DNA of 58,072 nucleotides from a virus (IMGVR_UViG_3300048913_000259:1-58072); one strand, 5' to 3'. Shown: positions 1 through 58,072, numbered from the stretch's first letter. The notes: generated by a model from the letters alone, not told the origin. Made by a program: numbers and translations.

Positions 1-127
1 TGGGCGGCCGTGAACTCGCACCAGGCGCGCCAGCGGCCGGCGTCGGCGTCCAGGCTGGCCAGCTGGCGGCCGGCTTCCTTGCAGGCCCATTCAACAGCGG
101 CCATCCAGATGCCTTGCGCACGCGCGG
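1..127. repeat. Exact 127-bp duplication of the window end (identical to 57946..58072); closure overlap of a circular or circularly permuted genome
   Basis: Read directly: tgggcggccgtgaactcgcacc...ttgcgcacgcgcgg occurs at both ends of the window. Confidence 0.95.
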
Positions 128-281
128 CGCCCTCGTTCAGGAAGGCGCCGTCATGGCGCTGGGTGGTGGGCAGGCCCTGGCCGGTAATCACGCGCTGAAG
201 CTCGGCCAGCTCGGGCGCGCGGATCACGCGCGGCGCGTAGATCGTGCGCAGCAGCTGCGCCAGGTTGGCGGGCGCGGTCAC
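1..281 (-). CDS. Hypothetical protein, 5' portion of a gene split by the window junction (continues at 57945..57819; about 135 aa in total)
   Basis: GTG at 281 overlaps the upstream stop as GTGA, with GGAGG 6 nt upstream. Third codon positions are high-GC. The frame reads VTAPANLAQLLRTIYAPRVIRAPELAELQ...GIWMAAVEWACKEAG and continues into the ORF seen at 57819..58049. Confidence 0.6.
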   Translation of the reverse strand, partial: MTAPANLAQLLRTIYAPRVIRAPELAELQRVITGQGLPTTQRHDGAFLNEGAARAQGIWMAAVEWACKEAGRQLASLDADAGRWRAWCEFTAA

Positions 282-568
282 TGGCCGCCTCCGTTCTCGG
301 TGGCGATCAGTGCGTCAGCCATGATCCAGCAATCGCGCGCGATCGCGCGGGCGTACTCGGTCGGCTCGATCGGGCCATGCTCGGGGCAGGCCTGCATGCT
401 GGCCAGGTAGCCCTGCATCGCCTGGCCGGCGTACAGCTGGCGGATCGTCAGGCCCGGCACCAGGGCCATGTGGCCGGGCGCCAGGACCTGGCCATCAGGC
501 GCCAGGATGTTAAGGTCGCTGTCGTTCGTGAACTCGGTGGGGAAAACGGGGCGGTTGTCGGTCTTCAT
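278..568 (-). CDS. Hypothetical protein (96 aa)
   Basis: Track ORF 278..625 trimmed to MKTDNRPVFPTEF. Its ATG overlaps the stop of the upstream gene as ATGA. Confidence 0.7.
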   Translation of the reverse strand: MKTDNRPVFPTEFTNDSDLNILAPDGQVLAPGHMALVPGLTIRQLYAGQAMQGYLASMQACPEHGPIEPTEYARAIARDCWIMADALIATENGGGQ

Positions 569-1200
569 GCTGCGGCCTCGGCGCCAGCCAGGTGCTTCTT
601 GATGCCGTAGTAGACAGCTTTGCATGCGCGGACGTCGACCATTGCATCATGGGCGCCGTCCAGGGTCTTGCCGGTGAAGTGGGCGTAGGCCTCGGCCAGG
701 CTGGCCGTCTTCTTCTTGTCGCCGGCCGGCCTCGAGGCGTTGACGATCTTGGTGCTGCCGCCTTGGGTGCAGTAGGACGGCGCCGCCTTCCAGTGGTCTT
801 CAAAGGCCACGCCGTTGTGCAGCTGGTTCGCGAACGTGGGGCTGCGCACCAGCTCGATGCGCACCAGGCGCGCGTCGAATTTCTCATTGTGGGCCGCGCG
901 CAGGCCGGCGCGCTTCCACAGCTCGATGAACTCGGGAATAACCAGGTCGGCGGCCACGCCTTTGACAAGCGCCAGCTCGGTCGTGGTGCCGGTCAGCTTG
1001 GCCACTTCCTCGGGGATGGTCCAGCCGCACGGCAGGATGAAGTGATTCAGCTCGGCGATCGTTTCGCCGGTCGCTTCAATGCACAGCTCGGCGGCCAGCT
1101 GGAACACGCGCGGCTGGCGCTCGTCGGTGCTGCGCTCGCCGTACAGCGGGATGCCGGTACATTCGACGTCGTAGAACAGGATGGTAGTTGCTGCGGTCAT
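565..1200 (-). CDS. DnaQ-like DEDDh 3'-5' exonuclease
   Basis: 211 aa carrying the three Exo motifs: FYDVECTG (ExoI), AHNEKFD (ExoII) and HDAMVD (ExoIII). Confidence 0.8.
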   Translation of the reverse strand: MTAATTILFYDVECTGIPLYGERSTDERQPRVFQLAAELCIEATGETIAELNHFILPCGWTIPEEVAKLTGTTTELALVKGVAADLVIPEFIELWKRAGLRAAHNEKFDARLVRIELVRSPTFANQLHNGVAFEDHWKAAPSYCTQGGSTKIVNASRPAGDKKKTASLAEAYAHFTGKTLDGAHDAMVDVRACKAVYYGIKKHLAGAEAAA

Positions 1201-1212
1201 ATCGGGGCTCTC

Positions 1213-1455
1213 TTAGTGTGGAAGGGCGGAGGCGTCCGCCCGGCGTGCGCGCTCGAGCGCGTCGTTGTAAAGCTCGGGGTCCATTTCGATGCCGACCAGG
1301 CGCAGGGCTTCAACCTGAAGCTCAAGGCGGTTCACCCAGCAGCTGGTCGCCCATACCAGGGCGGCCTGGTAGTCGTCGGTGCCGGGCAGGCCGGCGCGCT
1401 GCATGCAGTTGCGCAGCGCCAGGATATTCGTCTGGAAGGGTTGGAAGGGATGCAT
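1213..1455 (-). CDS. Hypothetical protein (80 aa)
   Basis: Balanced amino-acid composition, tightly packed in the operon. Confidence 0.6.
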   Translation of the reverse strand: MHPFQPFQTNILALRNCMQRAGLPGTDDYQAALVWATSCWVNRLELQVEALRLVGIEMDPELYNDALERARRADASALPH

Positions 1456-1457
1456 GG

Positions 1458-1664
1458 TCAGCCTCTCGGCCGCCGGCTGGCCAGCTCACAGGTGCAGTTG
1501 TCGCCCTGGCTGCAATTCTGCGTGCATGGCGATTCGGGCAAGCTGGCCACCAGGTCGCCGACCAGCAGCACGATCGCCACCACGATCAGGCCGCCGGCGG
1601 CCAGATCGAGGCCGAACAGCAGCGCCAGCGCCGCGGCCAGCAGGATGCACAGGATGGTCTTCAT
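1458..1664 (-). CDS. Small membrane protein with Cys-rich tail (68 aa)
   Basis: Hydrophobic N-terminus MKTILCILLAAALALLFGLDLAAGGLIVVAIVLLVG followed by CTQNCSQGDNCTC. ATGA overlap with the upstream gene. Confidence 0.6.
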   Translation of the reverse strand: MKTILCILLAAALALLFGLDLAAGGLIVVAIVLLVGDLVASLPESPCTQNCSQGDNCTCELASRRPRG

Positions 1665-2080
1665 GCGGGCACCAGGCCCAGCAGCTGCTGCGCTCGAGCG
1701 CGCAGGCCTGGAATGTTCGGCTCGGCGCCGTTCGGCAGCTCGGCGATCGCGCGCGCGAACTCGCGCCAGGCGTCCGGAACATCCGGCTCATCGAAGTCCG
1801 CCACCAGGTGCGCCTGGCGGCCGGCCTCGAGGCGATCGGACTGGCGGCGGCGCTGCTCGCCCAGCTGGCGGGTGAAGACTTCGCGCGGCGCGCGCTCGCT
1901 CGGCACGCCGATCGCGCTGGCGAACATGGCCACGTCGGACGGCTCCATGATGACGACTTCGACCTGGTGCTCTGCCTGGGTGCCAGGGATGCGGAAGGGC
2001 AGCGTGTCGCGGCGGCCGAACGTCGCGGCCAGGTTGAACAGCTCGAGCTCGGTGCGCGGCTTGGCGGGCGTGGTTTGCAT
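1661..2080 (-). CDS. Hypothetical protein (139 aa)
   Basis: Track ORF 1661..2242 trimmed to MQTTPAKPRTELELF. GAGAGAGG SD lies upstream of the ATG at 2080. Confidence 0.65.
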   Translation of the reverse strand: MQTTPAKPRTELELFNLAATFGRRDTLPFRIPGTQAEHQVEVVIMEPSDVAMFASAIGVPSERAPREVFTRQLGEQRRRQSDRLEAGRQAHLVADFDEPDVPDAWREFARAIAELPNGAEPNIPGLRARAQQLLGLVPA

Positions 2081-2126
2081 GATTGCCTCTCTCAGGTTGG
2101 CGCCCGCCGGCGGCGGGCTTTGTGCG

Positions 2127-2327
2127 TTAGATGGTACCCATGAGTGCGCGGGTGTTGCGCACTTGCTCGACAGTTTCGTAGGTGACGGCGCCCATGCGCT
2201 CGATGTCCAGGTCGACGGCGCGCATGGCCGCGGCCATCGCACGGAACAGGGACGGCATCGGCGACACGGTGCGGATACGCAGGCTCGGGAACGGCAGGGC
2301 CGGGGCGGTGGTGCGGGCGTAGATCAT
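2127..2327 (-). CDS. Hypothetical protein (66 aa)
   Basis: Track ORF 2127..2336 trimmed to MIYARTT, with an AAGG SD 7 nt upstream. Confidence 0.5.
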   Translation of the reverse strand: MIYARTTAPALPFPSLRIRTVSPMPSLFRAMAAAMRAVDLDIERMGAVTYETVEQVRNTRALMGTI

Positions 2328-2337
2328 GGCGCGCACC

Positions 2338-2472
2338 TTAGAACAGGTTGAAGGGGAAAGCCGGGGCCGCCTCGATGGCGCCCACGGCGATGATGCAGAC
2401 CAGGATGCCGATGAAGTTGACGGCCGGGTAGGTCTTGGAAACGTAGTTCAGGTCTTTCAGCAATTGCAGCAT
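2338..2472 (-). CDS. Small hydrophobic peptide (44 aa), below the ORF-track size cutoff
   Basis: My own translation: MLQLLKDLNYVSKTYPAVNFIGILVCIIAVGAIEAAPAFPFNLF. GAGAGGA SD upstream. It is the first ORF after the promoter at 2510..2538. GC3 is high. Confidence 0.5.
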   Translation of the reverse strand: MLQLLKDLNYVSKTYPAVNFIGILVCIIAVGAIEAAPAFPFNLF

Positions 2473-2509
2473 GGTGTCCTCTCGCTTGTTATTGATTTGC
2501 AACAAGGAG

Positions 2510-2538
2510 AGTATATTGCAGGGCTTAGGTCATTGCAA
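2510..2538 (-). promoter_or_regulatory. Sigma70-like promoter: TTGCAA, 17-nt spacer, TATACT
   Basis: On the minus strand, TTGCAA is at 2538..2533, then a 17-nt spacer, then TATACT at 2515..2510. It sits in an AT-richer 80-bp gap between genes. Confidence 0.55.
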
Positions 2539-2541
2539 TAT
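2513..2541. promoter_or_regulatory. Inverted repeat ATATTGCA-N13-TGCAATAT overlapping the promoter (candidate operator)
   Basis: 8-bp arms at 2513..2520 and 2534..2541. The same TATTGCA half-site recurs at 56629..56663 and at 10005..10011. Confidence 0.5.
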
Positions 2542-2553
2542 CTTTCTGTACGA

Positions 2554-3120
2554 TCATGCAGGCACTTCGCCAATCATATCCTCGAGCGCGGCGCCGGCGG
2601 CCGTGATCGCGGTCTTGTCCAGGTCGACCAGGTGCGGCCAGATTTTGGCCTTCTGTTCGTGGGCGGTGCGCTTGCTCACACCGATGCGCTCGGCGGCCCG
2701 GCCGATCGTCTTGCTGCGCTCGAAATACTCCTGCACGATCGCGTAGCGTAGGCGGTGCTCGGTCCTGGTGCTGGGAACGAATTGCTCGGCCCAGCTGGCC
2801 AGCGTCATGATCGCGCCCTTGTAGGCGTCCAGGGGCTTTTCGCCACCACAGGAACAGCACGGCTCCACGCGCTCGGAGAACCTGGCCACGATGCAGGCGC
2901 GATGCAGCGGAGAGAGCTTGTCGACGCGCGCCAGGATGATGCCGGCCTGCGCGGCGCCGTCCAGCGCCACCAGGCCCTTGCCGCTGCCGATGCCGGCGCC
3001 GCCACCAGCTTCAGCTGCCGCGCGCCGTAGTTGCTTGGCCATCGGCGTCTGCGCGTACTGCTGCGAGCTGAAGCGAATCGCGAACATCAGTGCATCGTGT
3101 GGGTTCCTGAACAATTCCAT
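2554..3120 (-). CDS. Putative transcription regulator with sigma-70 region-4-like HTH (188 aa)
   Basis: The C-terminal segment RLRYAIVQEYFERSKTIGRAAERIGVSKRTAHEQKAKI resembles sigma region 4.2. An upstream segment LSPLHRACIVARFSE and a CCSC cluster are also present. GAGAGA SD. Confidence 0.45.
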   Translation of the reverse strand: MELFRNPHDALMFAIRFSSQQYAQTPMAKQLRRAAAEAGGGAGIGSGKGLVALDGAAQAGIILARVDKLSPLHRACIVARFSERVEPCCSCGGEKPLDAYKGAIMTLASWAEQFVPSTRTEHRLRYAIVQEYFERSKTIGRAAERIGVSKRTAHEQKAKIWPHLVDLDKTAITAAGAALEDMIGEVPA

Positions 3121-3138
3121 CGTTGTATCTCTCTGTTA

Positions 3139-3168
3139 TTATCGGGGCTCGGCCTTTATCGGGGCTCG
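3139..3168. repeat. Direct repeat TTATCGGGGCTCG x2 (17-bp period) in the 5' leader of the regulator gene
   Basis: Copies at 3139..3151 and 3156..3168, just upstream of the start codon at 3120. Confidence 0.6.
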
Positions 3169-3184
3169 AGACTTTCACCTTCTT

Positions 3185-3215
3185 GGGGCCGCCGGCGAAG
3201 CGGCCCCTTTTCTTT
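3185..3215 (+). terminator. GC hairpin plus T-tract oriented for the plus strand (antisense to the local operon)
   Basis: GGGGCCGC-cggcgaa-GCGGCCCC followed by TTTTCTTT. On the minus-strand RNA the hairpin has no U-tract. Confidence 0.45.
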
Positions 3216-3795
3216 ATGCTCGAGCGAAAGCCGGCAGGCGTTCACGGCTGGCATAGTGGCGCACCAGCACGGCCGTCAGGATCACGCCGCCCAGCAGCGC
3301 GGCCACGGCCAGGCCCAGCGCCAGCACGGCCATGTTGTCGCTGTCCTCATCCTTGCCGCTGAACAGCTTGCCCACGTTGGCCAGCGCCTGGCCGATGCCG
3401 TCGCTGGCGCCGTACAAGTTGTGTCCCATCGCGATCGTGTTGTAGCCGGCTGCGGCCGTGCTCGACCAGCTGCGCTCACGGATCGCCACGCGCCAGCTTT
3501 CCACCAGGATCACAAGGCCCGTCGACAGCGCCGGCACGATGATGAACAAGTACCACAACGACACGGCGCCCTGCGCTACGGTAGGCGGCAGCTTGCCGGC
3601 CAGGTGCAGCACGGTACCGAACAGGAACCCGATCACGCTGGAAAAGCCGACCGCGGCCTGGACGGCGCCGCACCAGGTCAGCAGGCGGCCCCAGCCGCCC
3701 AGCGCCTTCGCCTCGTTCCAGGCCCGGCCCACGGACCAGCAATTGGCCCAGCTCACAACAAAATTCAGCAACAGCATCAGCAGTAACATGCCCAT
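3214..3795 (-). CDS. Multi-pass membrane protein (193 aa), function unknown
   Basis: Several hydrophobic segments (LLLMLLLNFVVSWA, VGFSSVIGFLFGTVL, LWYLFIIVPALSTGLVILV, VLALGLAVAALLGGVILTAVL). GGGAGAA SD. Confidence 0.7.
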   Translation of the reverse strand: MGMLLLMLLLNFVVSWANCWSVGRAWNEAKALGGWGRLLTWCGAVQAAVGFSSVIGFLFGTVLHLAGKLPPTVAQGAVSLWYLFIIVPALSTGLVILVESWRVAIRERSWSSTAAAGYNTIAMGHNLYGASDGIGQALANVGKLFSGKDEDSDNMAVLALGLAVAALLGGVILTAVLVRHYASRERLPAFARA

Positions 3796-3878
3796 CGTTT
3801 TATTCTCCCTAGTCTAGTTTGGCCGCCCTCTGGCGGTTGCCGAAAGGATACCCGTAAAGTTTCCTATTCGCATCAGGT

Positions 3879-4484
3879 TTAGACGGCATCTTCCTCGGTG
3901 TAGACGTTTCCTGTTGCAAGGCTGTCGTGCATGCGGTTCAGCGCCTCGAGCACGTCGGCCTTGCTGGCTGCTTGCAGCTGCACCTGGTGGATTTCCAGCA
4001 CCTCGCGAATGGCCGCGGCGGCCTCGCCATCGAATCCCCAGCGGCCGGTCCTGCGCTGGCGCAGCTGGGCGCGCCAGGCGCCGGCCATCGCGTCCTTGAT
4101 GCGCGGGTACCATTCCTCGGCATAGCCCAGCTCGGTGAGGATCATGGCCACGTTCAGGTTCTTGACGATCACGCCCCACGTTTCTTCGTTGCCGTAGCCG
4201 GCCAGCATGGTCGACAGGCAGAGCCAGGCGTCAGTCTCGAGCTCATGGCGCGCGCGCCGGTCCATCGGCAGGCCCATGTTGTCGTTCACGCGCTTGAGCT
4301 CGGCCGCCACCTCGCGCAGCGCCGACGTCGGCCGCGGCCTGGTGGTCGGGTCGAAGCGTTCGCCCATGCGCGGTGTAAGCCGGGCATCGTATTCGTTGGT
4401 CAGCAGCGCGCCCACATGGGCCAGGGCCAGCTGCGTCAGGTCCAGGGTGCTCTTGCCGCATGCGCGCGCCTTCAAAATCTTCAT
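3879..4484 (-). CDS. Hypothetical protein (201 aa)
   Basis: Track ORF 3879..4754 trimmed to MKILKARACGKSTL, with an AAGGAAG SD. The upstream extension is Arg/Gly-rich junk that overlaps the previous gene. Confidence 0.65.
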   Translation of the reverse strand: MKILKARACGKSTLDLTQLALAHVGALLTNEYDARLTPRMGERFDPTTRPRPTSALREVAAELKRVNDNMGLPMDRRARHELETDAWLCLSTMLAGYGNEETWGVIVKNLNVAMILTELGYAEEWYPRIKDAMAGAWRAQLRQRRTGRWGFDGEAAAAIREVLEIHQVQLQAASKADVLEALNRMHDSLATGNVYTEEDAV

Positions 4485-4486
4485 GG

Positions 4487-4900
4487 TCAAACTTCCTTGA
4501 TGTGTATTCCGTGCACCGTCGCCATCAGGTGCTTCTTGTTCCGGTAGCTGGCCAGCTTGCGCGTCGGCTCGCTCTTGGCGTCCTCGACTACCAGCTGGCC
4601 GTTCTCGATGTAGGTGAAGTCGGCGTAGTAGCGCAGCGCGGCCTTCTTCTTGGCCTCGCCGGCCAGGTGCACGGCCGGCGCCAGGATGTAACGCACCTGG
4701 CGTTTCAGGTCCTGGATCACGCCGGCCGCGGCCAGCTGCTCGAGCTCGCGCCACCTGGTGGCTTCCTTGCGGCTGTCGAACAGCTGGCCATCCTGGTCGA
4801 CCTTCACGTTGTTGAATTTCGATCGCTTCGCCGGCGCCGCGGCGCGCTTGGCCTGCGCGGCCAGGTGCGCCTTCAGGATGCGATCGCCCCAGCGGGTCAT
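4487..4900 (-). CDS. DUF1064-like protein (137 aa)
   Basis: Track ORF 4487..5293 trimmed to MTRWGDRILKAHL. The KFNNVKVDQDGQLFDSRKEATRWRELEQLAAAGVIQDLKRQ pattern is typical of DUF1064. ATGA overlap with the upstream gene. Confidence 0.55.
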   Translation of the reverse strand: MTRWGDRILKAHLAAQAKRAAAPAKRSKFNNVKVDQDGQLFDSRKEATRWRELEQLAAAGVIQDLKRQVRYILAPAVHLAGEAKKKAALRYYADFTYIENGQLVVEDAKSEPTRKLASYRNKKHLMATVHGIHIKEV

Positions 4901-5166
4901 TGCCTGGTCGTGTTCGTGGTGCGGGCCTGGTGCGCGGCCAGCTCGCGCGCGCGCTCCATGTTCACGATGCCGACCTCGATGCTTTCCTTGTGGCCGTGCA
5001 TGTACAGGACCGGCGCGCCGTTGAAAGCGGCGATGTAGCGTTCCAGGTCCTGGGCCGTCACCTCGACCACTTTGCCGCCGTTCAGCTTCCACAGCGCGGC
5101 CATCAGGATGCGGTCGCGCATGCCCTCGGTCTGTTCCAGGATCGGGGCTTCGTTCAGTGCTTGCAT
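4897..5166 (-). CDS. Hypothetical protein (89 aa)
   Basis: AAGGAAG SD and balanced composition. Confidence 0.65.
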   Translation of the reverse strand: MQALNEAPILEQTEGMRDRILMAALWKLNGGKVVEVTAQDLERYIAAFNGAPVLYMHGHKESIEVGIVNMERARELAAHQARTTNTTRQ

Positions 5167-5186
5167 GTTCTTCCTTCGATGATGAT

Positions 5187-5211
5187 GCGGGCGCCCAGCT
5201 CGAGCGCCCGC
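5187..5211 (-). other. Intergenic GC stem-loop (8-bp stem) without U-tract
   Basis: GCGGGCGC-N9-GCGCCCGC, between the stop at 5220 and the start at 5166. Confidence 0.35.
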
Positions 5212-5219
5212 GGGTTGAT

Positions 5220-6506
5220 TTAGCCGACCGGGTTATGGCCTGGCGGCTTCGGTGCAGCGGCACCCGGGTCCGGCCGGCGCAGCGGTGCATCAAAAGCGGC
5301 GATGCGCAGGGACAGGATGCTCGAGTAGCTGGACATCAGGGAAAGCTGGTCATCCAGGCGGCGCAATTCTGCACCGTCGATGCGCTTGGCGAACGGCGAA
5401 GCCACGAAGGCGCGCAGCTTCTCGATCTTCTCGTCCAGCTCCCACTTCTCCACGAAGACACGCACCTGGTGCGGCTCGTAGCCGTCCGCCTCGAGCTGCT
5501 TAACGGCGTTGGCGCGCTCGAGCTCGGCGGTCGACACAGTGGGCGCTTCGGCCAGCGTGCGGCCCAGCTGGCTCGCCAGCACGTAGCCCTCGAATTCCCA
5601 CAGCTTTTCACGCGCCAGGCGGGTCGCGGTGGCGATCGCGTACTGGCGGCCCAGCTCGGCGTCGAAGTTCTCGGGGCTGACGGTCGCTTCGTGCCCGATC
5701 GCCACCACGAAGCCACCAGGCAGGCGCGCGGTTGCGACGGTGCTGGTGGTGCCCGGGATGCGCGCGGTTTCGTAGGTCAGGCTGGCCACCAGGATGTTGA
5801 TGCGTTCCTCGGACACGCTCGGGCCCTTGGTCGGCGCCGGCGTGGCCTTGGCCAGCAGCTGGCCCAGCTTGGCCTGTTGCGCCTGGTCGATCGACGTGGC
5901 CGGGATCGACGGCAGCGCCATCGACGGGTGCACCTGGCTGGCGGCGATCGTGTCGGACAGGACCGGCACCTGGTCGCGGTCCAGCACCACGTCGAGCACT
6001 TCCAGGATGATCCAGTCATCGGCCTGTGCGTCGGTTCCACTCGGCGCCCACGTACTCACGCGGCCGTCTGCGCCCTTCAGGGCCATGTAGGCGTTGTACG
6101 GTACCGGCTTGTCGCCGAAGTGGGCCTTGGCCAGCCTGGTCTGTGCCGGGTAGGCGTTGGCCGGCACCAGGTACACGAACATGCCTTTGCCGTTCCAGCC
6201 CTTGCGCGCGATCGCCTTGCCCAGCTTCAGGGCCTCCATCGCCAGGCCGAACGGCACGCCATCGGTGCGGCGGTACGCGGCCTCAAATTGCTCCTTCGGG
6301 CTCCACGACACGTAGCCGGCATAGCCGGGCACGTTGGGCTTGCCGCCGTCCTGGTACTCGACCAGGTAGCCGTCGTCGGCCGGGTTCTCGTCGGCCGGCA
6401 CGGTCCAGCCGCGCAAAGTGTTGTAGTGCAGCCGGGTCATAGGCTGGGCGTGGACGATCTTGGTGCCGATGAATTTCATGGGTATCTTCGCTCCGGTGTA
6501 TTTCAT
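5220..6506 (-). CDS. Three-part fusion protein: N-terminal small phage domain, DUF2829 (Tad2-like) domain, N4-Gp49/Sf6-gp66-like domain, plus a C-terminal helical tail (428 aa)
   Basis: The DUF2829 signature is FGLAMEALKLGKAIARKGWNGKGMFVYL...YMALKGADGRVSTWAPSGTDAQADDWIILE. The later segment TSTVATARLPGGFVVAIGHEATVSPENFDAELGRQYAIATATRLAREKLWEFEGYVL matches the Gp49-family pattern. Confidence 0.65.
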   Translation of the reverse strand: MKYTGAKIPMKFIGTKIVHAQPMTRLHYNTLRGWTVPADENPADDGYLVEYQDGGKPNVPGYAGYVSWSPKEQFEAAYRRTDGVPFGLAMEALKLGKAIARKGWNGKGMFVYLVPANAYPAQTRLAKAHFGDKPVPYNAYMALKGADGRVSTWAPSGTDAQADDWIILEVLDVVLDRDQVPVLSDTIAASQVHPSMALPSIPATSIDQAQQAKLGQLLAKATPAPTKGPSVSEERINILVASLTYETARIPGTTSTVATARLPGGFVVAIGHEATVSPENFDAELGRQYAIATATRLAREKLWEFEGYVLASQLGRTLAEAPTVSTAELERANAVKQLEADGYEPHQVRVFVEKWELDEKIEKLRAFVASPFAKRIDGAELRRLDDQLSLMSSYSSILSLRIAAFDAPLRRPDPGAAAPKPPGHNPVG

Positions 6507-6510
6507 GGGA

Positions 6511-7047: not shown

Positions 7048-7079
7048 GGTGCTGCTCTCCTTCAGGGTTGAAAAAATCG

Positions 7080-8294: not shown

Positions 8295-8295
8295 A

Positions 8296-9921: not shown

Positions 9922-10006
9922 AGTTAAACCTCCCTTAGTTGTGGATTGAGCCGCGATGGTATCACAGCCGTTGCAAGATCGTGCGGAAAAATAGCGCAGA
10001 AAGTTA

Positions 10007-49661: not shown

Positions 49662-49886
49662 CTAGTCCTGGCTTTCGCCAGCGGCCAGCAAATTCTGTAG
49701 CTGCTTGAGCTCGGCAATCCGGCCGCGCAGGCTGGCGGTCTGAACCTGGTCAAGGTTCTCGCCGTCGTTCTTGCGCCGGTGTGACTCGAGGCGCGCCGCC
49801 AGGTGGCGCACCAGCTTGGCCATCAGCACGCTATTGCGGTCGGCGTGCGTGAGCTCGAGCTCGAGAGGGTCGGTGTTCGTCGTCAT
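49662..49886 (-). CDS. Hypothetical protein (74 aa)
   Basis: ATGA overlap with the portal stop; helical composition. Confidence 0.55.
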   Translation of the reverse strand: MTTNTDPLELELTHADRNSVLMAKLVRHLAARLESHRRKNDGENLDQVQTASLRGRIAELKQLQNLLAAGESQD

Positions 49887-52294
49887 GCCTGGTACGCCTG
49901 TCCGTTATGGGCGCGGCCTGGCGGTTCGGTCGGCGGCGTCGTGACCTCGGGGCCGTGCGCGTTCGCCGCGGCCAGGCGCTCCTGGGTTTGCAGCTTCATC
50001 GTGGTGGCGGCCAGGTCGGCCTTCACCTGCTCGAGCGAGATTTGCCGGGTGTTGGCGTAGTCCAGCATGGCCAGGCGCTCCTTCAGCTGAAGCTCCTGCA
50101 TGCGCGCCTGGTGCTCGAGCTGGGTGCGCTCGTTCTCGGCCTGGGCGAATACGCCATCGCGGTCCATATCGGTCTTGATGCGCTCCTTCTGCACCTCGGC
50201 CGCGATCTGCGCGGTTTGCACGCGGGCCTGGGCGCCGATCTTGGCCGCCTCGAGGCGCGGGTCGACCGGCGGGCCGGCTTCCTGCATCTGCTTCTGCTTG
50301 AGCTGCCACTCGGTGTCGCTGTACTGGAAGCGATCGGGGTCCAGGCGCTGGGCGCGCAGGTATTCCTTGAACCACTTCTCCGGGTTGATCCGGAAGTCCG
50401 GGTCCTTCACGAACTGCGCCATTTGCAGGATTGCCTGGTTCTGTGCATCGCGCTCAAACAGGGCGCTCGAGCCACGCGCGGCAACAATGTACTCGCCCTT
50501 CTCGTCTTCCTCGGGGCCGTACATCAGCAACCACTCGTAGTAGCGCAACAGGTGCGGCACCGTGATCCGATCATCGAACAGCTTGGCGATCGCGCGCAGC
50601 GGCGTGTTGCTGTTGTTGGTCAGGATGTTCATGCCGCCGACCGTCGTGGTGGCGCTGCCTTGCTGGCCTTGCAGCAGCATGCTCATGCCGGTGACGTCCT
50701 CGGCCATCTTCAGGCCGAAGTTGATGATGCTGAGTAGTTCCTCGGCCAGCATATCCAGCTTGATCGCGGCGAAGGCCTTGCGCACGTCGTCAATGCTGCT
50801 GTCCGGGTCCAGCTCCCACATCTTGCGCGGGCTGATGCCGTACTTGGCGCCGCGGCCCAGCGGCTTCAGGGCGCCCTTCATCATCACGAACTGCGGGCCA
50901 GCTGCCAGGCCGGCGTTGTCCATCAAGTTGCGCACGCCGGCGTTGACGATCCGCTGCGGGCTGCGCACCTGGCGCGCCACGCCGATGCCGGCCCAATGGT
51001 TCTCTCGCTCCTGCCACACCATCACGTCATACGGGAAGCTGCCGCTGTCCAGGGTAGTCAGGGCGGCCTTGATGACGCGATCGTTCACCATCGTCACCAT
51101 GACCGGCAGCACCTCGCCGTCGTCGGCGTCGATGCCGGCCGCGCGCAGGTCTTCCGCGGTGGCCACGCCGTTGTAGTACCAAATCTCGTACTGCTCGCCG
51201 TCCGGCGCCTGGTAGGTGTCGTCCTCGGCAAAGCGGCGCTGCGGGCCTTCCTCGAGGCACCTGGTGATCGTGTCTTCCAGGTACATCGGCATGCCGTCGC
51301 TGTCCTTCGTGCCCTTCAGGTCGCGCAGCTGGCGCGCCGTGATCCGGTCCTTCTCCCACACGAAGCTGCCGCGGTGGATGTCCTCGCCACAGGCTGGGTC
51401 CGGGTAGAAGTTCCAGTAGCTGATGCAGCGCGATTCGGGCGCGGTCTTGTTCTGCACCTTCATGGTGTAGGTGCCGGTCCTCTCGTCGCGCACCAGGGCG
51501 CGAGACATACGCTTCGAGGGGAACGGGCCTTTCAGGATGCCGACACCCACCTTGGCCGCGTCACGGATGACCTTGCGCTGTTCGGCGCTGAACTGGCCTT
51601 CCTCGAGCCAGTCCTCGATGCGGGTCTTGGCCTTGGCCACCTTGGCGCGGGCTTCGTTGACCATCTGCGTTGCGGCCTCGCCGATCGTGCCAGGCGCGCC
51701 AGGCTTCAGCGCCACGCCAGGCGGCGGCGTCAGCGGCTTGTCGCTGCCCATGAGGGCGATCACGTCCGGCATCGGAGTCGGGCGCAGGTCCCAATTCGCT
51801 TCATCGGTCGGCAGCAGCATGTCGCACGCGCGGCCGGCGCTGAAGTCGACGTAGGCCCGGGTGATGTTCATGAAGACATTCGAGCCGGCCGCTTCGTCGG
51901 TGCCCGTCACGGCCGTACCGCCCACGCCATTCGGGTCGCGCGGCTTCAGGGTGACAGTCTCGTTCCGGTTGGCGTTGTCGATGCCTTCGTAGTGTTCCTC
52001 ATCCTGGCGCCACAGGTCTTCGATGCCGGATGCACGGCGGGCCTCGATCGCGCTGTTCTTCTTCGTGGCCAGGGCGGCGCCGAAGGTGTCCAGGCGGGCC
52101 TGGCGATCGGCCTCCTGCTCGGCCTGGCGCGCGGCGCGTTCCTCCGCGGTGAATACGTCTTCCTCATCCTCGACGGCCAGCGCCAGGCCGGTCGGCGTCT
52201 TGTCCAGCTGGGCGCCGGGCAGCTGGTCGACGGCGCCAGGCTGGCCAGGTGCTCGCATTGCAGCGCGCCGGCGTGCGTCTTGTTTAGTGCTCAT
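49883..52294 (-). CDS. Portal protein (803 aa)
   Basis: Size and position directly downstream of TerL. The C-terminal region is charged and helical. Confidence 0.7.
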   Translation of the reverse strand: MSTKQDARRRAAMRAPGQPGAVDQLPGAQLDKTPTGLALAVEDEEDVFTAEERAARQAEQEADRQARLDTFGAALATKKNSAIEARRASGIEDLWRQDEEHYEGIDNANRNETVTLKPRDPNGVGGTAVTGTDEAAGSNVFMNITRAYVDFSAGRACDMLLPTDEANWDLRPTPMPDVIALMGSDKPLTPPPGVALKPGAPGTIGEAATQMVNEARAKVAKAKTRIEDWLEEGQFSAEQRKVIRDAAKVGVGILKGPFPSKRMSRALVRDERTGTYTMKVQNKTAPESRCISYWNFYPDPACGEDIHRGSFVWEKDRITARQLRDLKGTKDSDGMPMYLEDTITRCLEEGPQRRFAEDDTYQAPDGEQYEIWYYNGVATAEDLRAAGIDADDGEVLPVMVTMVNDRVIKAALTTLDSGSFPYDVMVWQERENHWAGIGVARQVRSPQRIVNAGVRNLMDNAGLAAGPQFVMMKGALKPLGRGAKYGISPRKMWELDPDSSIDDVRKAFAAIKLDMLAEELLSIINFGLKMAEDVTGMSMLLQGQQGSATTTVGGMNILTNNSNTPLRAIAKLFDDRITVPHLLRYYEWLLMYGPEEDEKGEYIVAARGSSALFERDAQNQAILQMAQFVKDPDFRINPEKWFKEYLRAQRLDPDRFQYSDTEWQLKQKQMQEAGPPVDPRLEAAKIGAQARVQTAQIAAEVQKERIKTDMDRDGVFAQAENERTQLEHQARMQELQLKERLAMLDYANTRQISLEQVKADLAATTMKLQTQERLAAANAHGPEVTTPPTEPPGRAHNGQAYQA

Positions 52295-55604: not shown

Positions 55605-55761
55605 GGGAATCTCGGGTTGAAGTTGAGGGGAGTGCGGCCGTGCCCGTTCTGCGCGCAGGTAGAGCTCTACGTCAGGTTCCACATCGTCACGGCCGCGTGC
55701 GGCGCTTATTTCCAGCGTGACCGGCGCCAGAGCTGCATGGGAGTCGTCCGCTGCCCATACC

Positions 55762-55790
55762 GAAGAAAAGAGCCAGGCCCGAAGGCCCGG
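55762..55790 (-). terminator. Second intrinsic terminator in the late-operon leader
   Basis: The minus-strand RNA reads CCGGGCC-UUCG-GGCCUGG (one G-U pair) followed by CUCUUUUCUUC. Confidence 0.55.
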
Positions 55791-55891
55791 CGAAGTCGCG
55801 CGCCTGAGCTAGGTGCTGCGCGAGAGAGACAAGGGAATCGCCGTTACCAGGTTGCTTGATGCGGGCGGATAATTCTGTGCGTCGATGGTCG

Positions 55892-55920
55892 AAAAAAAAG
55901 CCCCGGTGAAGGGGCTTTTT
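55892..55920 (-). terminator. Strong (bidirectional) intrinsic terminator after the early-left operon / in the late leader
   Basis: AAAAAAAA-GCCCC-ggtgaa-GGGGC-TTTTT. On the minus strand the hairpin is followed by U8. Confidence 0.8.
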
Positions 55921-55955
55921 GCTTGGGGACAATTGTTGACTGTATCGAAGTTCTG

Positions 55956-55985
55956 ATTCTGCCGCACACTATTGTGCGGAGTCAA
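55956..55985 (-). promoter_or_regulatory. Candidate late promoter: TTGACT, 18-nt spacer, CAGAAT, with the inverted repeat CCGCACA-N4-TGTGCGG filling the spacer
   Basis: On the minus strand, TTGACT is at 55985..55980, the IR at 55979..55962 and CAGAAT at 55961..55956. The terminator begins about 30 nt downstream of the predicted start site. Confidence 0.4.
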
Positions 55986-56021
55986 TTGATTTCCTGTGCA
56001 CAATCTCGATTTTATCCACAG

Positions 56022-56348: not shown

Positions 56349-56564
56349 TTAGAAAAGCTGCTTCGATTGGGCTGCGGCCAGGCGCAGGTCGTTGTAATCC
56401 ATGCGCTGAATCTTCACCAGGCTCTCGACGTAGATGGCCCAGCCGGCTTCGTCGTGCTCGGCCGGCTTCGGCAGGTCGCGGCGCAGCTGCTGGCGCAGGG
56501 TGGCGCAGTAGTTCAGCAGGGCCTGGCCAGCTGCATCGGGGGCGTGTTGGGTGGTGGTGCGCAT
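56349..56564 (-). CDS. Hypothetical protein (71 aa)
   Basis: AGGAGA SD. Confidence 0.6.
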   Translation of the reverse strand: MRTTTQHAPDAAGQALLNYCATLRQQLRRDLPKPAEHDEAGWAIYVESLVKIQRMDYNDLRLAAAQSKQLF

Positions 56565-56608
56565 GGGTCTGTCTCCTGTTTCGGCCGCACGGCGCGGCCA
56601 CAGGTGAG

Positions 56609-56637
56609 ACTATGCCAGGATTCGGCTAACTCTGCAA
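56609..56637 (-). promoter_or_regulatory. Sigma70-like promoter: TTGCAG, 17-nt spacer, CATAGT
   Basis: On the minus strand, TTGCAG is at 56637..56632 and CATAGT at 56614..56609, in the gap upstream of the gene starting at 56564. Confidence 0.45.
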
Positions 56638-56663
56638 TATGTTGCAGTAACTTATTGCAGAGT
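56629..56663. promoter_or_regulatory. Perfect 11-bp inverted repeat ACTCTGCAATA-N13-TATTGCAGAGT (candidate operator)
   Basis: Arms at 56629..56639 and 56653..56663. The left arm covers the -35 element. Confidence 0.55.
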
Positions 56664-56671
56664 GGCCCGGT

Positions 56672-57151
56672 TCAGTAGGTCGACAGGGTGCCGATCGCGC
56701 CGGCCTTGGCCAGCTGGCGCAGCTTGTCGGCGCGGCGCCCGCGCTTGAGCTCGGCCTTGGTGATGCGTTGCAGGTCCAGCAGCGTCAGGGCCGGCCGCGG
56801 CAGCTCGACGGGCACCAGGTCGGGCCAGGAAACGATCGTGGTCCAGTCCTGGCCAGCTGGGTCTATGCCGAGGATCACGGCGCCGGTACCGGTTCGCACG
56901 GCGGACTGGTAGCTGGCCATGAGGGCGGCCGGCGTCGGCGGCGACGTGATGAACCTGAAGCTCTCGACGTGGCCCAGCTCGCCGGTGAAGTGCGGTTCCG
57001 TACCTGGTGCGTAGGCGTCCGGCCGGCGGTGGTACCTGGCGCGGCTCTGCTCGACCAGGTACCGGCCGCGCGCGGAGAACTCGGCGAACGTGCCGCCCCT
57101 CAATGCCCGGCGCGGCATCGACCACAGGCGTTTGAAGCCGGCGGCCGTCAT
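56672..57151 (-). CDS. Hypothetical protein (159 aa)
   Basis: Track ORF 56672..57772 trimmed to MTAAGFKRLWSMP. ATGA overlap with the upstream gene. Confidence 0.55.
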   Translation of the reverse strand: MTAAGFKRLWSMPRRALRGGTFAEFSARGRYLVEQSRARYHRRPDAYAPGTEPHFTGELGHVESFRFITSPPTPAALMASYQSAVRTGTGAVILGIDPAGQDWTTIVSWPDLVPVELPRPALTLLDLQRITKAELKRGRRADKLRQLAKAGAIGTLSTY

Positions 57152-57822
57152 CGTTCGCGCCAGTTGCCGCACCTGGCCTGAATCGCCGGCAGGTCGCCAC
57201 CACACACACAGCGGCCGCCTTCGGTGCAGTAGCCGGCCGCCCGGCCGCCGCGCTGCTCGTAGCTGCTCATGGCCAGCTTGATCTGCTGCGCCAGGTACGT
57301 GCGGCCCACTCGCCGGCCCTGGATCGTCACCAGCTGGCGATCGTCCGGCCGGCTGGCCAGCACCACAATCGACAGGCAGGCGCCACAGCCCATGAAGCGC
57401 AGGCCCTGGCCTTGTGCGGTATCGCTCAACGTGTGGTTGAGGCATCGCGGACACACGCCGGCGCGCGCCTCGCGGTCCTGCTTGTCGGTCAGCAGCGGCA
57501 CCTGGTCGACGTTCAGGAAGTTGCCGCGGTGCGAATGGGCGATCTGATAACGCTCGAAAGACTGGCGGCCCGGGGCGGTCGACATTTCGGCCTCGATGCG
57601 CATGGCGATGTTGCCGCTGGCCGCGTTCTCGCCCTCCCATCGGCCTTGAATCAGCGGCGCGGCCTTCCCTTCCGGGATGCGGCCCTTGGTGTAGTCCCTG
57701 GCGATCTTGGCGGCCAGCGCCAGCGTTTCGTCGCGCTCGGCCAGCTGCTTCGTCACGTACTGCATGCCGCAAACCTGCACGCCTTCAACGAAGCAATCGA
57801 CGGTGTGAACGTGTTCAGTCAT
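57148..57822 (-). CDS. Cys-rich hypothetical protein (224 aa), possible zinc-binding
   Basis: Track ORF 57148..58035 trimmed to MTEHVHTVDCFVEG. ATGA overlap with the upstream gene. CPRC...GCGAC and CTEGGRCVCGG clusters. Confidence 0.55.
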   Translation of the reverse strand: MTEHVHTVDCFVEGVQVCGMQYVTKQLAERDETLALAAKIARDYTKGRIPEGKAAPLIQGRWEGENAASGNIAMRIEAEMSTAPGRQSFERYQIAHSHRGNFLNVDQVPLLTDKQDREARAGVCPRCLNHTLSDTAQGQGLRFMGCGACLSIVVLASRPDDRQLVTIQGRRVGRTYLAQQIKLAMSSYEQRGGRAAGYCTEGGRCVCGGDLPAIQARCGNWRER

Positions 57823-58072
57823 GTTGGGCTCCGGGTTGCTATGGCCGCGTCCATCGCGCGGTCCAGGTCTTCCTTCGTGGGGGAATGGCAGGCGTCCAGG
57901 ATCGGGCCTATCACGTCTTCCATCGCCTTGCGGGCCGGCTCGTCCTGGGCGGCCGTGAACTCGCACCAGGCGCGCCAGCGGCCGGCGTCGGCGTCCAGGC
58001 TGGCCAGCTGGCGGCCGGCTTCCTTGCAGGCCCATTCAACAGCGGCCATCCAGATGCCTTGCGCACGCGCGG
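57819..58072 (-). CDS. 3' portion of the junction-spanning gene (same gene as 1..281)
   Basis: The frame is open to the window end. The track Met at 58049 is internal once the circular sequence is joined. Confidence 0.6.
   Translation of the reverse strand, partial: ARAQGIWMAAVEWACKEAGRQLASLDADAGRWRAWCEFTAAQDEPARKAMEDVIGPILDACHSPTKEDLDRAMDAAIATRSPT
57946..58072. repeat. Second copy of the 127-bp terminal duplication
   Basis: Identical to 1..127. Confidence 0.95.

What the first reader, a model, noticed from the sequence alone, without database searches (positions are those of the whole stretch)
1..58072. Extreme hexamer skew driven by context-dependent codon choice: CTGCAG and CTGGAG essentially absent, CTCGAG about 8-fold over-represented
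All counts below are manual and approximate.

CTCGAG over-representation:
- I counted 42 CTCGAG sites in 1..15000. From base composition I expect about 5.

CTGCAG avoidance:
- Scanning the whole window for 'tgcag', I found no CTGCAG.
- The same scan gave about 35 TTGCAG, about 14 GTGCAG and about 6 ATGCAG.

CTGGAG avoidance:
- I found one CTGGAG (25030..25035) and no CTCCAG. The expectation is about 20 for each orientation.

How coding achieves this:
- Leu-Gln is written CTG-CAA (for example 10153..10158, and ALQTL in the giant gene), TTG-CAG (11519.., 12528..) or CTT-CAG (SALQIL near 20810). It is never CTG-CAG, although CTG and CAG are the preferred codons elsewhere.
- Leu-Glu is almost always CTC-GAG (FLERY, LLEQA, VLELEE, LALELE and others), occasionally CTT-GAG, and never CTG-GAG.
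- CTGAAG is not avoided.

This looks like selection against PstI-type (CTGCAG) and GsuI/BpmI-type (CTGGAG) restriction sites. The CTCGAG palindrome accumulates either as a by-product or as a selected site, for example as a target of the phage methyltransferase.
Basis: seen in the sequence. Interest (0 to 1): 0.65.

Follow-up and report, generated by a model that had tools for sequence, protein, structure and literature searches.

The report
Restriction-site avoidance in a phage genome
This complete 58-kb phage genome has been recoded with synonymous codons so that about thirty restriction-enzyme target words are absent, and the surplus of CTCGAG is largely what is left when Leu-Glu can no longer be written CTG-GAG; it is an extreme example of a known phage counter-defence, not a new mechanism.

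Summary
The counts are correct. CTCGAG occurs 127 times (42 in 1..15000), CTGCAG 0 times, CTGGAG once (25030) and CTCCAG 0 times.

Against a null that keeps every protein sequence and the overall codon usage, the expected counts are 19.6, 41.1 and 66.9 (CTGGAG and CTCCAG together).
- Leu-Glu is CTC-GAG 92 times and CTG-GAG 0 times (52 expected).
- Leu-Gln is never CTG-CAG (37 expected).

The depletion affects both strands. It is part of a wider pattern:
- 26 of 64 palindromic hexamers are absent.
- 22 of the 32 most depleted hexamers are known Type II sites (odds ratio 9, p=4e-9).
- Relatives with similar GC lack the pattern, or have a different one.

So restriction-site avoidance is the best explanation. 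The host and its enzymes remain unidentified.

CTCGAG is mainly the escape product of CTGGAG avoidance. The two words trade off across relatives (rho -0.56). However, CTCGAG still exceeds a null that forbids 81 depleted hexamers, in all three reading frames (92/5/27 against 37/0.2/6). That residue is unexplained.

The "phage methyltransferase" is a domain of a 4825-aa DarB-like giant protein. Its specificity is unknown.

The phenomenon is a known kind; this is an extreme new example.

The parts
1..58072 (.). Complete phage genome carrying the hexamer skew. CTCGAG 127; CTGCAG 0; CTGGAG/CTCCAG 1; 26 of 64 palindromic hexamers absent.
   Evidence: CTCGAG is spread roughly evenly (5-12 per 4 kb, spacing CV 1.15).
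25030..25035 (+). The only CTGGAG in the window. On the sense (-) strand of the giant gene it reads CTC-CAG (Leu-Gln).
   Evidence: sense-strand CTCCAG, frame 0, count 1.
1..127 (+). Exact 127-bp direct repeat of 57946..58072. This is an assembly overlap, so the genome is closed (circular or circularly permuted) and 57,945 bp long.
   Evidence: The same contig is found in Logan assembly SRR35925505.
57946..58072 (+). Second copy of the terminal overlap.
15115..29592 (-). Giant ORF of 4825 aa: a polyvalent, DarB-like (anti-restriction type) protein. It holds 32 of the CTCGAG sites.
   Evidence: Pfam LPD38 (5e-41), DUF6884, ResIII helicase and a weak MTS match. PHROG 10691 at 1e-116 to 1e-183. 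43-47% identity over about 900 aa to proteins annotated 'DarB-like antirestriction' in phages Parlo and Skulduggery.
19603..20295 (-). Amino-methyltransferase domain inside the giant ORF. Motif I is VLEPSAGHG. Motif IV is NPPF at aa 3206-3209 (DNA 19966..19977). This is the only methyltransferase found in the window.
   Evidence: DNA methyltransferase PHROGs 15406, 6263 and 799, E 1e-12 to 1e-24. No stand-alone methyltransferase was found among the other 59 complete proteins scanned.
21718..22035 (-). ResIII/SF2 helicase domain of the giant ORF.
47490..48524 (-). Major capsid protein gene, used to collect relatives for the comparative test.
49883..52294 (-). Portal gene (SU10-type). It places the phage among podophage-like viruses that have the Skulduggery genome plan.

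Best explanation
The window is the complete genome of an uncultured phage of a Gram-negative host. The genome has been purged of restriction-enzyme recognition words by synonymous recoding.

Selection acts on double-stranded DNA words. Each occurrence of a word cut by a restriction system met in the host population lowers plating efficiency, so synonymous variants lacking the word are fixed.
- CTGCAG (PstI-type) and CTGGAG/CTCCAG (BpmI/GsuI-type) show the largest deficits because CTG, CAG and GAG are the preferred codons. They would otherwise occur about 41 and 67 times.
- Leu-Gln is rewritten CTG-CAA, CTT-CAG or TTG-CAG. CTC-CAG is itself forbidden.
- Leu-Glu is rewritten mostly CTC-GAG. That is why the palindrome CTCGAG, one substitution from both orientations of CTGGAG, accumulates.

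Shown here: the counts, the codon mechanism, the symmetry between strands, the match to known sites and the specificity to this lineage.

Inferred: that restriction enzymes are the selective agent, and which enzymes they are.

Not explained: why the CTC-GAG route is preferred over the open CTG-GAA route about 10-fold beyond codon weights, and why CTCGAG is also in excess in the other two reading frames.
For: (1) Codon-aware null: CTGGAG 1 against 66.9, CTGCAG 0 against 41.1, CTCGAG 127 against 19.6.

(2) Both orientations are depleted on the sense strand: CTGGAG 0/56.6 and CTCCAG 1/11.0. The same holds for GGTCTC/GAGACC, CTCTTC/GAAGAG, CACGAG/CTCGTG, ACTGGG/CCCAGT and GCAGTG/CACTGC, all 0.

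(3) Breadth:
- 26 of 64 palindromic hexamers are absent, with a summed expectation of 187.
- 26 hexamer classes with expectation >=8 occur at most once, against 0.2 expected by Poisson.
- 22 of the 32 most depleted hexamers match known 6-bp Type II sites, against 284 of 1442 others (odds ratio 9.0, p=4e-9). They include PstI, BpmI, BsaI, BsmBI, EarI, BtsI, BseRI, BmrI, BssSI, BsrBI, NcoI, MluI, BsiWI, ClaI, BstBI, PmlI, BclI, BamHI and BstYI.
- Other dipeptides follow the same rule: Glu-Glu is GAG-GAA 44, GAA-GAG 0 and GAG-GAG 1; His-Glu is CAC-GAA 8 and CAC-GAG 0; Phe-Glu is TTC-GAG 19 and TTC-GAA 0.

(4) Lineage specificity:
- Pooled relatives with GC >=0.62 have CTGCAG at 1.25, CTGGAG at 0.87 and CTCGAG at 1.06 of expectation.
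- At conserved Leu-Gln positions relatives mostly have CTG-CAG (35 of 63 relative sequences at 10 positions; all 7 in the closest relative, L071), where the window has CTG-CAA, CTT-CAG or CTA-CAG.
- The closest relative, L071, shares the CTGGAG and Type IIS-type avoidances but has CTGCAG 52/28.6.

(5) By-product:
- 92 of 127 CTCGAG sites are in-frame CTC-GAG.
- The Leu-Gln escape routes fit simple codon weights: 55/22/18.5/4% observed against 56/17/21/5% predicted (my arithmetic).
- CTGGAG and CTCGAG ratios are anticorrelated across 21 relatives (Spearman -0.56, p=0.008).

(6) Skulduggery, a cultured phage with the same genome plan, shows the same kind of extreme avoidance with a different word list.
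Against: - The host, and therefore the cognate restriction-modification systems, were not identified. The selective agent is inferred, not shown.
- A published survey found no avoidance of Type IIG sites in phages (PMC6286503). From my own knowledge the CTGGAG prototypes BpmI and GsuI are Type IIG, so either this case is an exception or the real enzyme is of another type.
- Ten of the 32 most depleted hexamers match no known 6-bp site, for example TCTGGG, CACGGG, ACCAGA and GAGATG.
- GGAG/CTCC is depleted in every flanking context (0.40), which a few discrete 6-bp sites do not fully explain.
- The pure by-product model predicts only 35-46 CTCGAG.
Confidence: 0.78

Rival explanations
1. CTCGAG is itself favoured at the DNA level, alone or together with CGATCG, GTCGAC, GGTACC, GAGCTC and TGGCCA. 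It could be a functional or 'safe' palindrome, for example a site always methylated by a host enzyme or by the DarB-like methyltransferase domain. This would act in addition to the by-product effect.
For: - A constrained MCMC null that forbids 81 depleted hexamers and keeps codon usage gives CTCGAG by frame 36.9/0.2/6.2. The observed counts are 92/5/27 (27 forbidden words gave a total of 34.8).
- Recoding to CTG-GAA would create a depleted word (obs/exp <=0.5) at only 12 of the 92 CTC-GAG sites; the cut-offs <=0.1 and <=0.3 give 1 and 5.
- Ser-Ser is TCG-AGY (TCG-AGC or TCG-AGT) in 25 of 45 cases after a C-ending codon, but in 3 of 25 otherwise.
- Five GCT/CCT-CGA-G sites use two rare codons in tandem, against 0.2 expected.
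- The other enriched palindromes are not enriched in pooled relatives.
Against: - The excess (+107) is about the size of the deficits of its one-substitution neighbours (121).
- The same CTC-GAG preference appears in other genomes that deplete CTGGAG: L071 15:8 and L023 20:1.
- My forbidden list is incomplete. It has no 5-mers, 7-mers or bipartite sites, so the null underestimates the by-product.
- Only 3 CTCGAG sites lie in non-coding DNA.
- Skulduggery has a homologous methyltransferase-bearing giant protein and 0 CTCGAG.
- No function is known for such a motif.
Confidence: 0.25
2. The skew is an inherited compositional signature of the host or the phage lineage (codon-pair bias, oligonucleotide signature), not selection against restriction.
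For: - GGAG is mildly depleted (0.80) in pooled relatives, and CTC-GAG outnumbers CTG-GAG in several prophage relatives.
- Bacterial genomes also avoid sites of their own restriction-modification systems (established knowledge).
- The host genome could not be examined.
Against: - Relatives of the same GC and family have opposite patterns. Many have 0 CTCGAG, and CTGCAG at 2-7 times the base-composition expectation.
- L071, which has the same Leu codon usage, keeps CTGCAG.
- Relatives with low CTC usage and no CTGGAG avoidance almost never use CTC-GAG (L015, L113 and L147: 0).
- The depleted words are enriched 9-fold for known restriction sites.
Confidence: 0.08
3. The loss of CTGGAG and the depletion of GGAG reflect avoidance of Shine-Dalgarno-like sequences inside genes (an mRNA-level effect), not a DNA-level effect.
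For: - GGAG, GGAGG and AGGAG are depleted on the sense strand (0.40, 0.26, 0.54).
- Pooled relatives show a mild GGAG deficit (0.80).
Against: - The reverse complements are depleted as much or more on the sense strand: CTCC 0.34, CCTCC 0.09, CTCCT 0.24 and CTCCAG 1/11.
- CTGGAG (0.01) and GAGGAG (0.04) are far below other NNGGAG words (0.2-0.9).
- This model cannot explain CTGCAG or the palindromes.
Confidence: 0.04

Closest known systems
Restriction-site (palindrome) avoidance in phage genomes, as surveyed by Rusinov et al. 2018 (PMC6286503). Earlier work by Sharp, by Karlin and by Rocha is cited from my own knowledge.
   Same: - Near-complete elimination of short recognition words.
- Achieved without changing the proteins.
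- Strongest for 6-bp palindromes.
- Specific to each phage lineage.
- Seen in a virulent-looking dsDNA phage.
   Different: - The extent is at the extreme end: 26 of 64 palindromic hexamers are absent.
- About ten asymmetric Type IIS/IIG-type words are lost in both orientations. One is a word whose prototypes are Type IIG, a class for which that survey found no avoidance.
- A small set of palindromes is strongly enriched.
Pseudomonas phage Skulduggery (NC_070827), Serratia phage Parlo and other roughly 60-kb podophages with a DarB-like giant protein
   Same: - Same gene order: small and large terminase, portal, capsid, tail, giant protein, lysis cassette with Rz, NinB.
- The helicase and methyltransferase region of the giant protein is 43-47% identical.
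- Skulduggery also lacks CTGCAG, GGTCTC, CTCTTC, ACGCGT, ATCGAT, CACGTG and GGATCC, and has a few enriched palindromes: GGTACC 47/15.5 and GATATC 23/7.8.
   Different: - No nucleotide similarity. TerL identity to known phages is at most about 46%, and capsid identity to cultured phages is about 33% or less (58% to an uncultured viral genome).
- Skulduggery has no CTCGAG and no CGATCG, whereas the window is rich in both.
Phage P1 DarB, a virion-packaged methyltransferase-helicase that protects incoming DNA from Type I restriction (own knowledge)
   Same: A giant protein encoded among the virion genes, with an SF2 helicase and an NPPF-type amino-methyltransferase domain. Cultured homologues are annotated as DarB-like.
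   Different: - Twice the size, with extra domains (LPD38, DUF6884).
- No direct comparison with P1 DarB was run.
- Packaging, activity and specificity were not tested.
Highly iterated palindromes such as cyanobacterial HIP1 (GCGATCGC), which is linked to a CGATCG methyltransferase (own knowledge)
   Same: Short palindromes (CTCGAG, CGATCG) occur far above codon-aware expectation in all three reading frames.
   Different: - The enrichment is 2.6- to 6.5-fold, not orders of magnitude.
- No extended 8-bp consensus: GCGATCGC 39 and GCTCGAGC 43, near maximal-order expectation.
- No cognate methyltransferase is known.
- Most of the excess is explained as an escape product.

Membership tests
Restriction-site avoidance in phage genomes | Recognition words are significantly under-represented against a null that keeps protein sequence and codon usage. 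| tested here: met
   CTGGAG 1/66.9, CTGCAG 0/41.1; 26 hexamer classes with expectation >=8 occur at most once, against 0.2 expected.
Restriction-site avoidance in phage genomes | The depletion acts on double-stranded DNA: both orientations of asymmetric words are lost, in any reading frame. | tested here: met
   all tested asymmetric words are at 0-1 (CCGCTC 3 of 18.6 expected) in both orientations relative to the sense strand.
Restriction-site avoidance in phage genomes | The depleted words coincide with known restriction enzyme specificities. | tested here: met
   22 of 32 against 284 of 1442, odds ratio 9.0, p=4e-9 (enzyme list from Biopython/REBASE).
Restriction-site avoidance in phage genomes | The pattern is specific to the phage lineage and is not shared by relatives of like composition. 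| tested here: met
   Codon comparison at conserved Leu-Gln and Leu-Glu positions.
Restriction-site avoidance in phage genomes | Cognate restriction-modification systems are present in the host population. | not testable with these tools
   The host is unknown. Capsid relatives lie in Beta- and Gammaproteobacterial genomes and MAGs. No tRNA genes. No close cultured relative.
Avoidance of Shine-Dalgarno-like sequences inside genes | The depletion is confined to the sense (mRNA) strand. | tested here: not met
   on the sense strand CTCC is 0.34 and CCTCC 0.09, as low as or lower than GGAG 0.40 and GGAGG 0.26.
Selected iterated palindrome (HIP1-like) | Enrichment beyond codon and amino-acid constraints in all reading frames. 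| tested here: inconclusive
   92/5/27 against 36.9/0.2/6.2 under a constrained null. However, the null is incomplete, and the excess matches the deficits of neighbouring words.
Selected iterated palindrome (HIP1-like) | A cognate methyltransferase that modifies the palindrome. | not testable with these tools
   The only methyltransferase is the NPPF domain of the giant ORF. Its specificity cannot be read from the sequence.
DarB-like polyvalent anti-restriction proteins | A giant ORF among the virion genes with helicase and amino-methyltransferase domains, homologous to annotated members. | tested here: met
DarB-like polyvalent anti-restriction proteins | The protein is packaged in the virion and protects incoming DNA from restriction. 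| not testable with these tools
   This needs virion proteomics and genetics.

The most novel reading that the evidence does not exclude
CTCGAG, and to a lesser degree CGATCG, GTCGAC, GGTACC, GAGCTC and TGGCCA, are positively selected 'safe' or functional palindromes in this phage. They could be sites kept methylated by the DarB-like methyltransferase domain or by a ubiquitous host enzyme. On this reading the genome shows a two-sided code: most palindromes are forbidden and a few are actively accumulated. The graded loss of NNGGAG words would record pressure from a diversifying family of Type IIG enzymes, a class for which avoidance has been reported not to occur.
Probability: 0.2. Interest if true: 0.6.

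Novelty: new member of a known kind. Interest (0 to 1): 0.35.

Why it matters
- The list of forbidden words is a fingerprint of the restriction enzymes this uncultured phage has met. It could be matched against candidate host genomes to assign a host, and it predicts which restriction systems the phage escapes.
- The case shows cleanly how avoiding one asymmetric word inflates its palindromic neighbour. That effect could be mistaken for a selected motif in k-mer scans.
- The unexplained residue of CTCGAG, and the complete loss of a word whose prototype enzymes are Type IIG, are modest open points for people who study restriction avoidance.

Tried and rejected
- Nucleotide search of 20 kb against 50,697 phage records found no match.
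- Host inference failed by every route tried:
  - No tRNA genes.
  - tblastn of TerL, capsid, a PHROG-37671 protein, ERF, the tail fibre and the DUF4214 protein gave only distant hits across many hosts, or none.
  - The genome-contig scan with a capsid alignment gave 61 loci, with at most 62% identity, in diverse Beta- and Gammaproteobacteria and mis-binned MAG contigs.
- I looked for a stand-alone DNA methyltransferase among 59 complete proteins with Pfam and found none.
- A PDB sequence search of the helicase and methyltransferase region gave no hit. NCBIfam gave nothing useful.
- HIP1-like extension of CGATCG or CTCGAG to 8-mers: not above maximal-order expectation.
- Synthetic 'domesticated' sequence: rejected. 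GAAGAC (BbsI), GAATTC, GCATGC and CTCGAG are kept, and the contig occurs in two environmental runs.
- VSP-type repair creating CTCGAG from CTTGAG: no depletion of CTTGAG/CTCAAG (15 against 16.1).
- CTGGAA as a hidden avoided word: rejected. It is at expectation outside frame 0.
- Two literature searches found no earlier description of this CTCGAG/CTGGAG trade-off.

Full report
**1. The observation**

Exact counting confirms every number that matters.
- The window is 58,072 bp with 66.1% GC.
- CTCGAG occurs 127 times, and exactly 42 times in 1..15000.
- CTGCAG occurs 0 times.
- CTGGAG occurs once, at 25030..25035.
- CTCCAG occurs 0 times.
- CTGAAG/CTTCAG occurs 89 times.

Markov models of order 0 to 4 rank CTCGAG as the most over-represented hexamer. 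They place CTGCAG and CTGGAG among the most depleted.

I called 61 genes with a codon-usage model; they cover 96.6% of the window, mostly on the minus strand. I then shuffled synonymous codons 300 times, keeping every protein sequence and the overall codon usage. The expectations are:
- CTGGAG/CTCCAG 66.9, observed 1.
- CTGCAG 41.1, observed 0.
- CTCGAG 19.6, observed 127 (z +28).

- Leu-Glu is CTC-GAG 92 times (10.3 expected), CTG-GAG 0 times (51.7 expected) and CTG-GAA 20 times.
- Leu-Gln is CTG-CAG 0 times (36.7 expected), CTG-CAA 30, CTT-CAG 12 and TTG-CAG 10.
- Leu-Lys and Leu-Asp are normal.

**2. What the sequence is**

The first 127 bases repeat exactly at the end. The window is therefore a closed genome of 57,945 bp. 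The same contig is present in the Logan assembly of run SRR35925505, and a fragment of it in SRR35925514.

It encodes the following:
- small and large terminase;
- an SU10-type portal and adaptor;
- a capsid protein and tail proteins;
- an Rz-type spanin;
- NinB, ERF and YqaJ recombination genes;
- a protein with a Tad2-like anti-Thoeris domain.

There is no nucleotide match to any of 50,697 phage records.

The 4825-aa ORF at 15115..29592 (minus strand) is a polyvalent protein.
- It carries LPD38, DUF6884, a ResIII helicase and an amino-methyltransferase domain.
- The methyltransferase domain has motif I VLEPSAGHG and motif IV NPPF at residue 3206.
- The helicase and methyltransferase region is 43-47% identical over about 900 residues to proteins annotated "DarB-like antirestriction" in Serratia phage Parlo and Pseudomonas phage Skulduggery.
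- Skulduggery has the same genome plan.
- This domain is the only methyltransferase in the window.

**3. DNA-level or mRNA-level?**

GGAG as a tetramer is at 0.40 of expectation. That raised the possibility of avoidance of Shine-Dalgarno-like sequences. Counting relative to the sense strand rules this out as the main cause.
- CTGGAG is 0 of 56.6 and its complement CTCCAG is 1 of 11.0.
- GGAG is at 0.40 and CTCC at 0.34.
- GGAGG is at 0.26 and CCTCC at 0.09.
- Every asymmetric word tested is at 0-1 in both orientations, apart from CCGCTC at 3 of 18.6 expected. The words are GGTCTC, CGTCTC, CTCTTC, CACGAG, ACTGGG, GCAGTG, CCGCTC, GAGGAG, TCTGGG and CACGGG.

The constraint therefore acts on double-stranded DNA.

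**4. CTGCAG and CTGGAG are the top of a long list**

- 26 of the 64 palindromic hexamers are absent, with a summed expectation of 187. They include CCATGG (20.6 expected), CGTACG (17.0), ACGCGT (14.4), TTCGAA, ATCGAT, CACGTG, TGATCA and GGATCC.
- 26 hexamer classes with expectation >=8 occur at most once. Poisson sampling predicts 0.2.
- Of the 32 hexamers at <=0.12 of expectation, 22 match a known 6-bp Type II specificity in the Biopython/REBASE list. Among the remaining 1442 hexamers, 284 do (odds ratio 9.0, p=4e-9).
- The sites of BbsI, EcoRI, SphI and XhoI are retained, so this is not an engineered "domesticated" sequence.

Other dipeptides obey the same rule with single-word precision:
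- Glu-Glu is GAG-GAA 44, GAA-GAG 0 and GAG-GAG 1 (EarI and BseRI words).
- His-Glu is CAC-GAA 8 and CAC-GAG 0 (BssSI word).
- Phe-Glu is TTC-GAG 19 and TTC-GAA 0 (BstBI word).

**5. Relatives**

Capsid-based scans returned 5 viral, 61 genomic and 80 metagenomic loci. The genomic hits lie mostly in Beta- and Gammaproteobacterial genomes or MAGs, at 62% identity or less. The host is probably a high-GC proteobacterium but remains unknown.

Each relative has its own pattern.
- Many have no CTCGAG at all, with CTGCAG at 2-7 times the base-composition expectation.
- A few lack CTGCAG.
- A few lack CTGGAG.

For 21 loci with GC >=0.62, pooled and compared with the codon-aware null, CTCGAG is at 1.06, CTGCAG at 1.25 and CTGGAG at 0.87.

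The closest relative is L071, with 73% capsid identity and the same Leu codon usage.
- It shares the loss of ACTGGG, GCAGTG, GAGGAG, CGTACG, TTCGAA, CCGCTC, CACGAG, CTCTTC and GGTCTC.
- It shares most of the CTGGAG loss (4/17.3).
- It has CTGCAG at 52/28.6.

At conserved Leu-Gln positions, L071 has CTG-CAG in 7 of 7 cases, where the window has CTG-CAA (6) or CTA-CAG (1). Over all 74 loci compared, relatives mostly have CTG-CAG or CTG-GAG where the window has the escape pairs.

So the Type IIS-type avoidances are older and are shared by the sublineage. The PstI-type avoidance is specific to this phage.

Phage Skulduggery also lacks CTGCAG, GGTCTC, CTCTTC, CGCGCG, CGATCG, ACGCGT and CTCGAG. It is enriched in GGTACC (47/15.5) and GATATC (23/7.8). 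Extreme avoidance with a few enriched palindromes therefore recurs in this kind of phage, with different words in each genome.

**6. Why CTCGAG is abundant**

*The by-product part is clear.*
- 92 of the 127 sites are in-frame CTC-GAG.
- Its excess (+107) is about the size of the deficits of its one-substitution neighbours (121).
- Across 21 relatives the CTGGAG and CTCGAG ratios are anticorrelated (Spearman -0.56, p=0.008; -0.62 with the window included).
- Other genomes that deplete CTGGAG (L071, L023) are also enriched in CTCGAG.

*It is not the whole story.*
- For Leu-Gln, the escape routes match simple codon weights: 55/22/18.5/4% observed against 56/17/21/5% predicted (my arithmetic).
- For Leu-Glu they do not. 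CTG-GAA should be the main route, yet CTC-GAG wins 92 to 20.
- Recoding to CTG-GAA would create a depleted word (obs/exp <=0.5) at only 12 of the 92 sites; stricter cut-offs of 0.1 and 0.3 give 1 and 5.
- Codon-swap MCMC that forbids 27 depleted hexamers predicts 34.8 CTCGAG in total.
- With 81 forbidden hexamers it predicts 36.9/0.2/6.2 by frame plus 3 non-coding. The observed counts are 92/5/27/3.
- In frame 2, Ser-Ser is TCG-AGC or TCG-AGT in 25 of 45 cases after a C-ending codon, but in 3 of 25 otherwise.
- In frame 1, five GCT/CCT-CGA-G sites use two rare codons together.
- CGATCG (149/57), GTCGAC (65/29), GGTACC (29/12), GAGCTC (34/17) and TGGCCA (117/61) are also enriched, in several frames. 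They are not enriched in pooled relatives.

I cannot tell whether this residue reflects an incomplete forbidden list or real positive selection. My list has no 5-mers, 7-mers or bipartite sites. I put the probability of positive selection at about 0.2-0.25.

**7. Comparison with what is known**

Restriction-site avoidance by phages is long established. A survey of phage genomes found complete or near-complete elimination of sites in about one-tenth of viral genomes. Nearly all cases involved orthodox Type II sites, and none was seen for Type I or Type IIG sites (PMC6286503).

The present genome belongs to that kind, at the extreme end. Three features are less usual:
- The number of asymmetric words lost in both orientations.
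- The total loss of CTGGAG. Its prototype enzymes are Type IIG (my own knowledge; the real enzyme is unknown), and NNGGAG words show a graded depletion from 0.01 to 0.9.
- The enriched palindromes.

The combination with a DarB-like giant protein and a Tad2-like domain fits a phage that invests heavily in counter-defence.

**8. Verdict**

It was too narrow in scope: it named two words out of about thirty. On the methyltransferase idea it remains untested.

This is a new and extreme example of a known phenomenon. It leaves one modest unexplained residue, so interest is moderate to low.

Noticed in passing
window 15115..29592 (-): A 4825-aa ORF takes up a quarter of the genome. It is a polyvalent protein with LPD38, DUF6884, a ResIII helicase and an NPPF amino-methyltransferase domain. 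It is homologous to the 'DarB-like antirestriction' giant proteins of phages Parlo and Skulduggery.
   Followed up: partly
window 5220..6506 (-): A 428-aa protein combines a Tad2-like (Thoeris anti-defence 2) domain with N4 gp49/Sf6 gp66 and crAss001_48 domains. It is a possible multi-domain counter-defence protein.
   Followed up: no
window 1..127 and 57946..58072: An exact 127-bp terminal direct repeat. The contig closes on itself, giving a genome of 57,945 bp.
   Followed up: yes
whole window: GGAG/CTCC is at 0.40 of expectation on both strands, in every flanking context. NNGGAG words show a graded series: CTGGAG 0.01, GAGGAG 0.04, GGGGAG 0.21, GTGGAG 0.28, GCGGAG 0.30, up to TAGGAG 0.88. 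This might record several related specificities.
   Followed up: partly
whole window: Near-absent words with no known 6-bp enzyme in the list used: TCTGGG/CCCAGA (0/36), CACGGG (1/34), ACCAGA (1/22) and GAGATG (2/20). CACGAG and CACGGG together suggest CACGRG. The 5-mer CCAGA is at 0.31.
   Followed up: no
whole window: GATC is found almost only as CGATCG (149 of 376). AGATCT, GGATCC and TGATCA are absent, and AGATCC occurs once against 21 expected. TCGA behaves likewise: ATCGAT and TTCGAA are absent, while CTCGAG and GTCGAC are enriched.
   Followed up: partly
L150 (Pseudomonas phage Skulduggery, NC_070827, 1..50000): This cultured phage has equally extreme avoidance: CGCGCG 0/32, CTCTTC 0/29, CTGCAG 0/27, GGTCTC 0/25 and CCGCGG 2/42. 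GGTACC and GATATC are enriched 3-fold.
   Followed up: partly
L008 (MW202426, Manatee Spring phage, 49.5 kb, 52% GC): 22 palindromic hexamers are wholly absent. 38 palindromes with expectation >=4 are at <=0.25 of expectation, and none is enriched. Unlike the window, this phage encodes a stand-alone adenine methyltransferase and a protein annotated as Type I restriction-modification.
   Followed up: no
L071 (Ga0265780_10000526, 21 kb of 59 kb): The closest relative (capsid 73% identical) shares the Type IIS-type avoidances and the CTCGAG excess, but is enriched in CTGCAG (52/28.6). This dates the PstI-type avoidance to after the split of the two phages.
   Followed up: partly
window 55605..56021: The largest stretch without a called gene (417 bp). 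It was not examined for promoters, origin or packaging signals.
   Followed up: no
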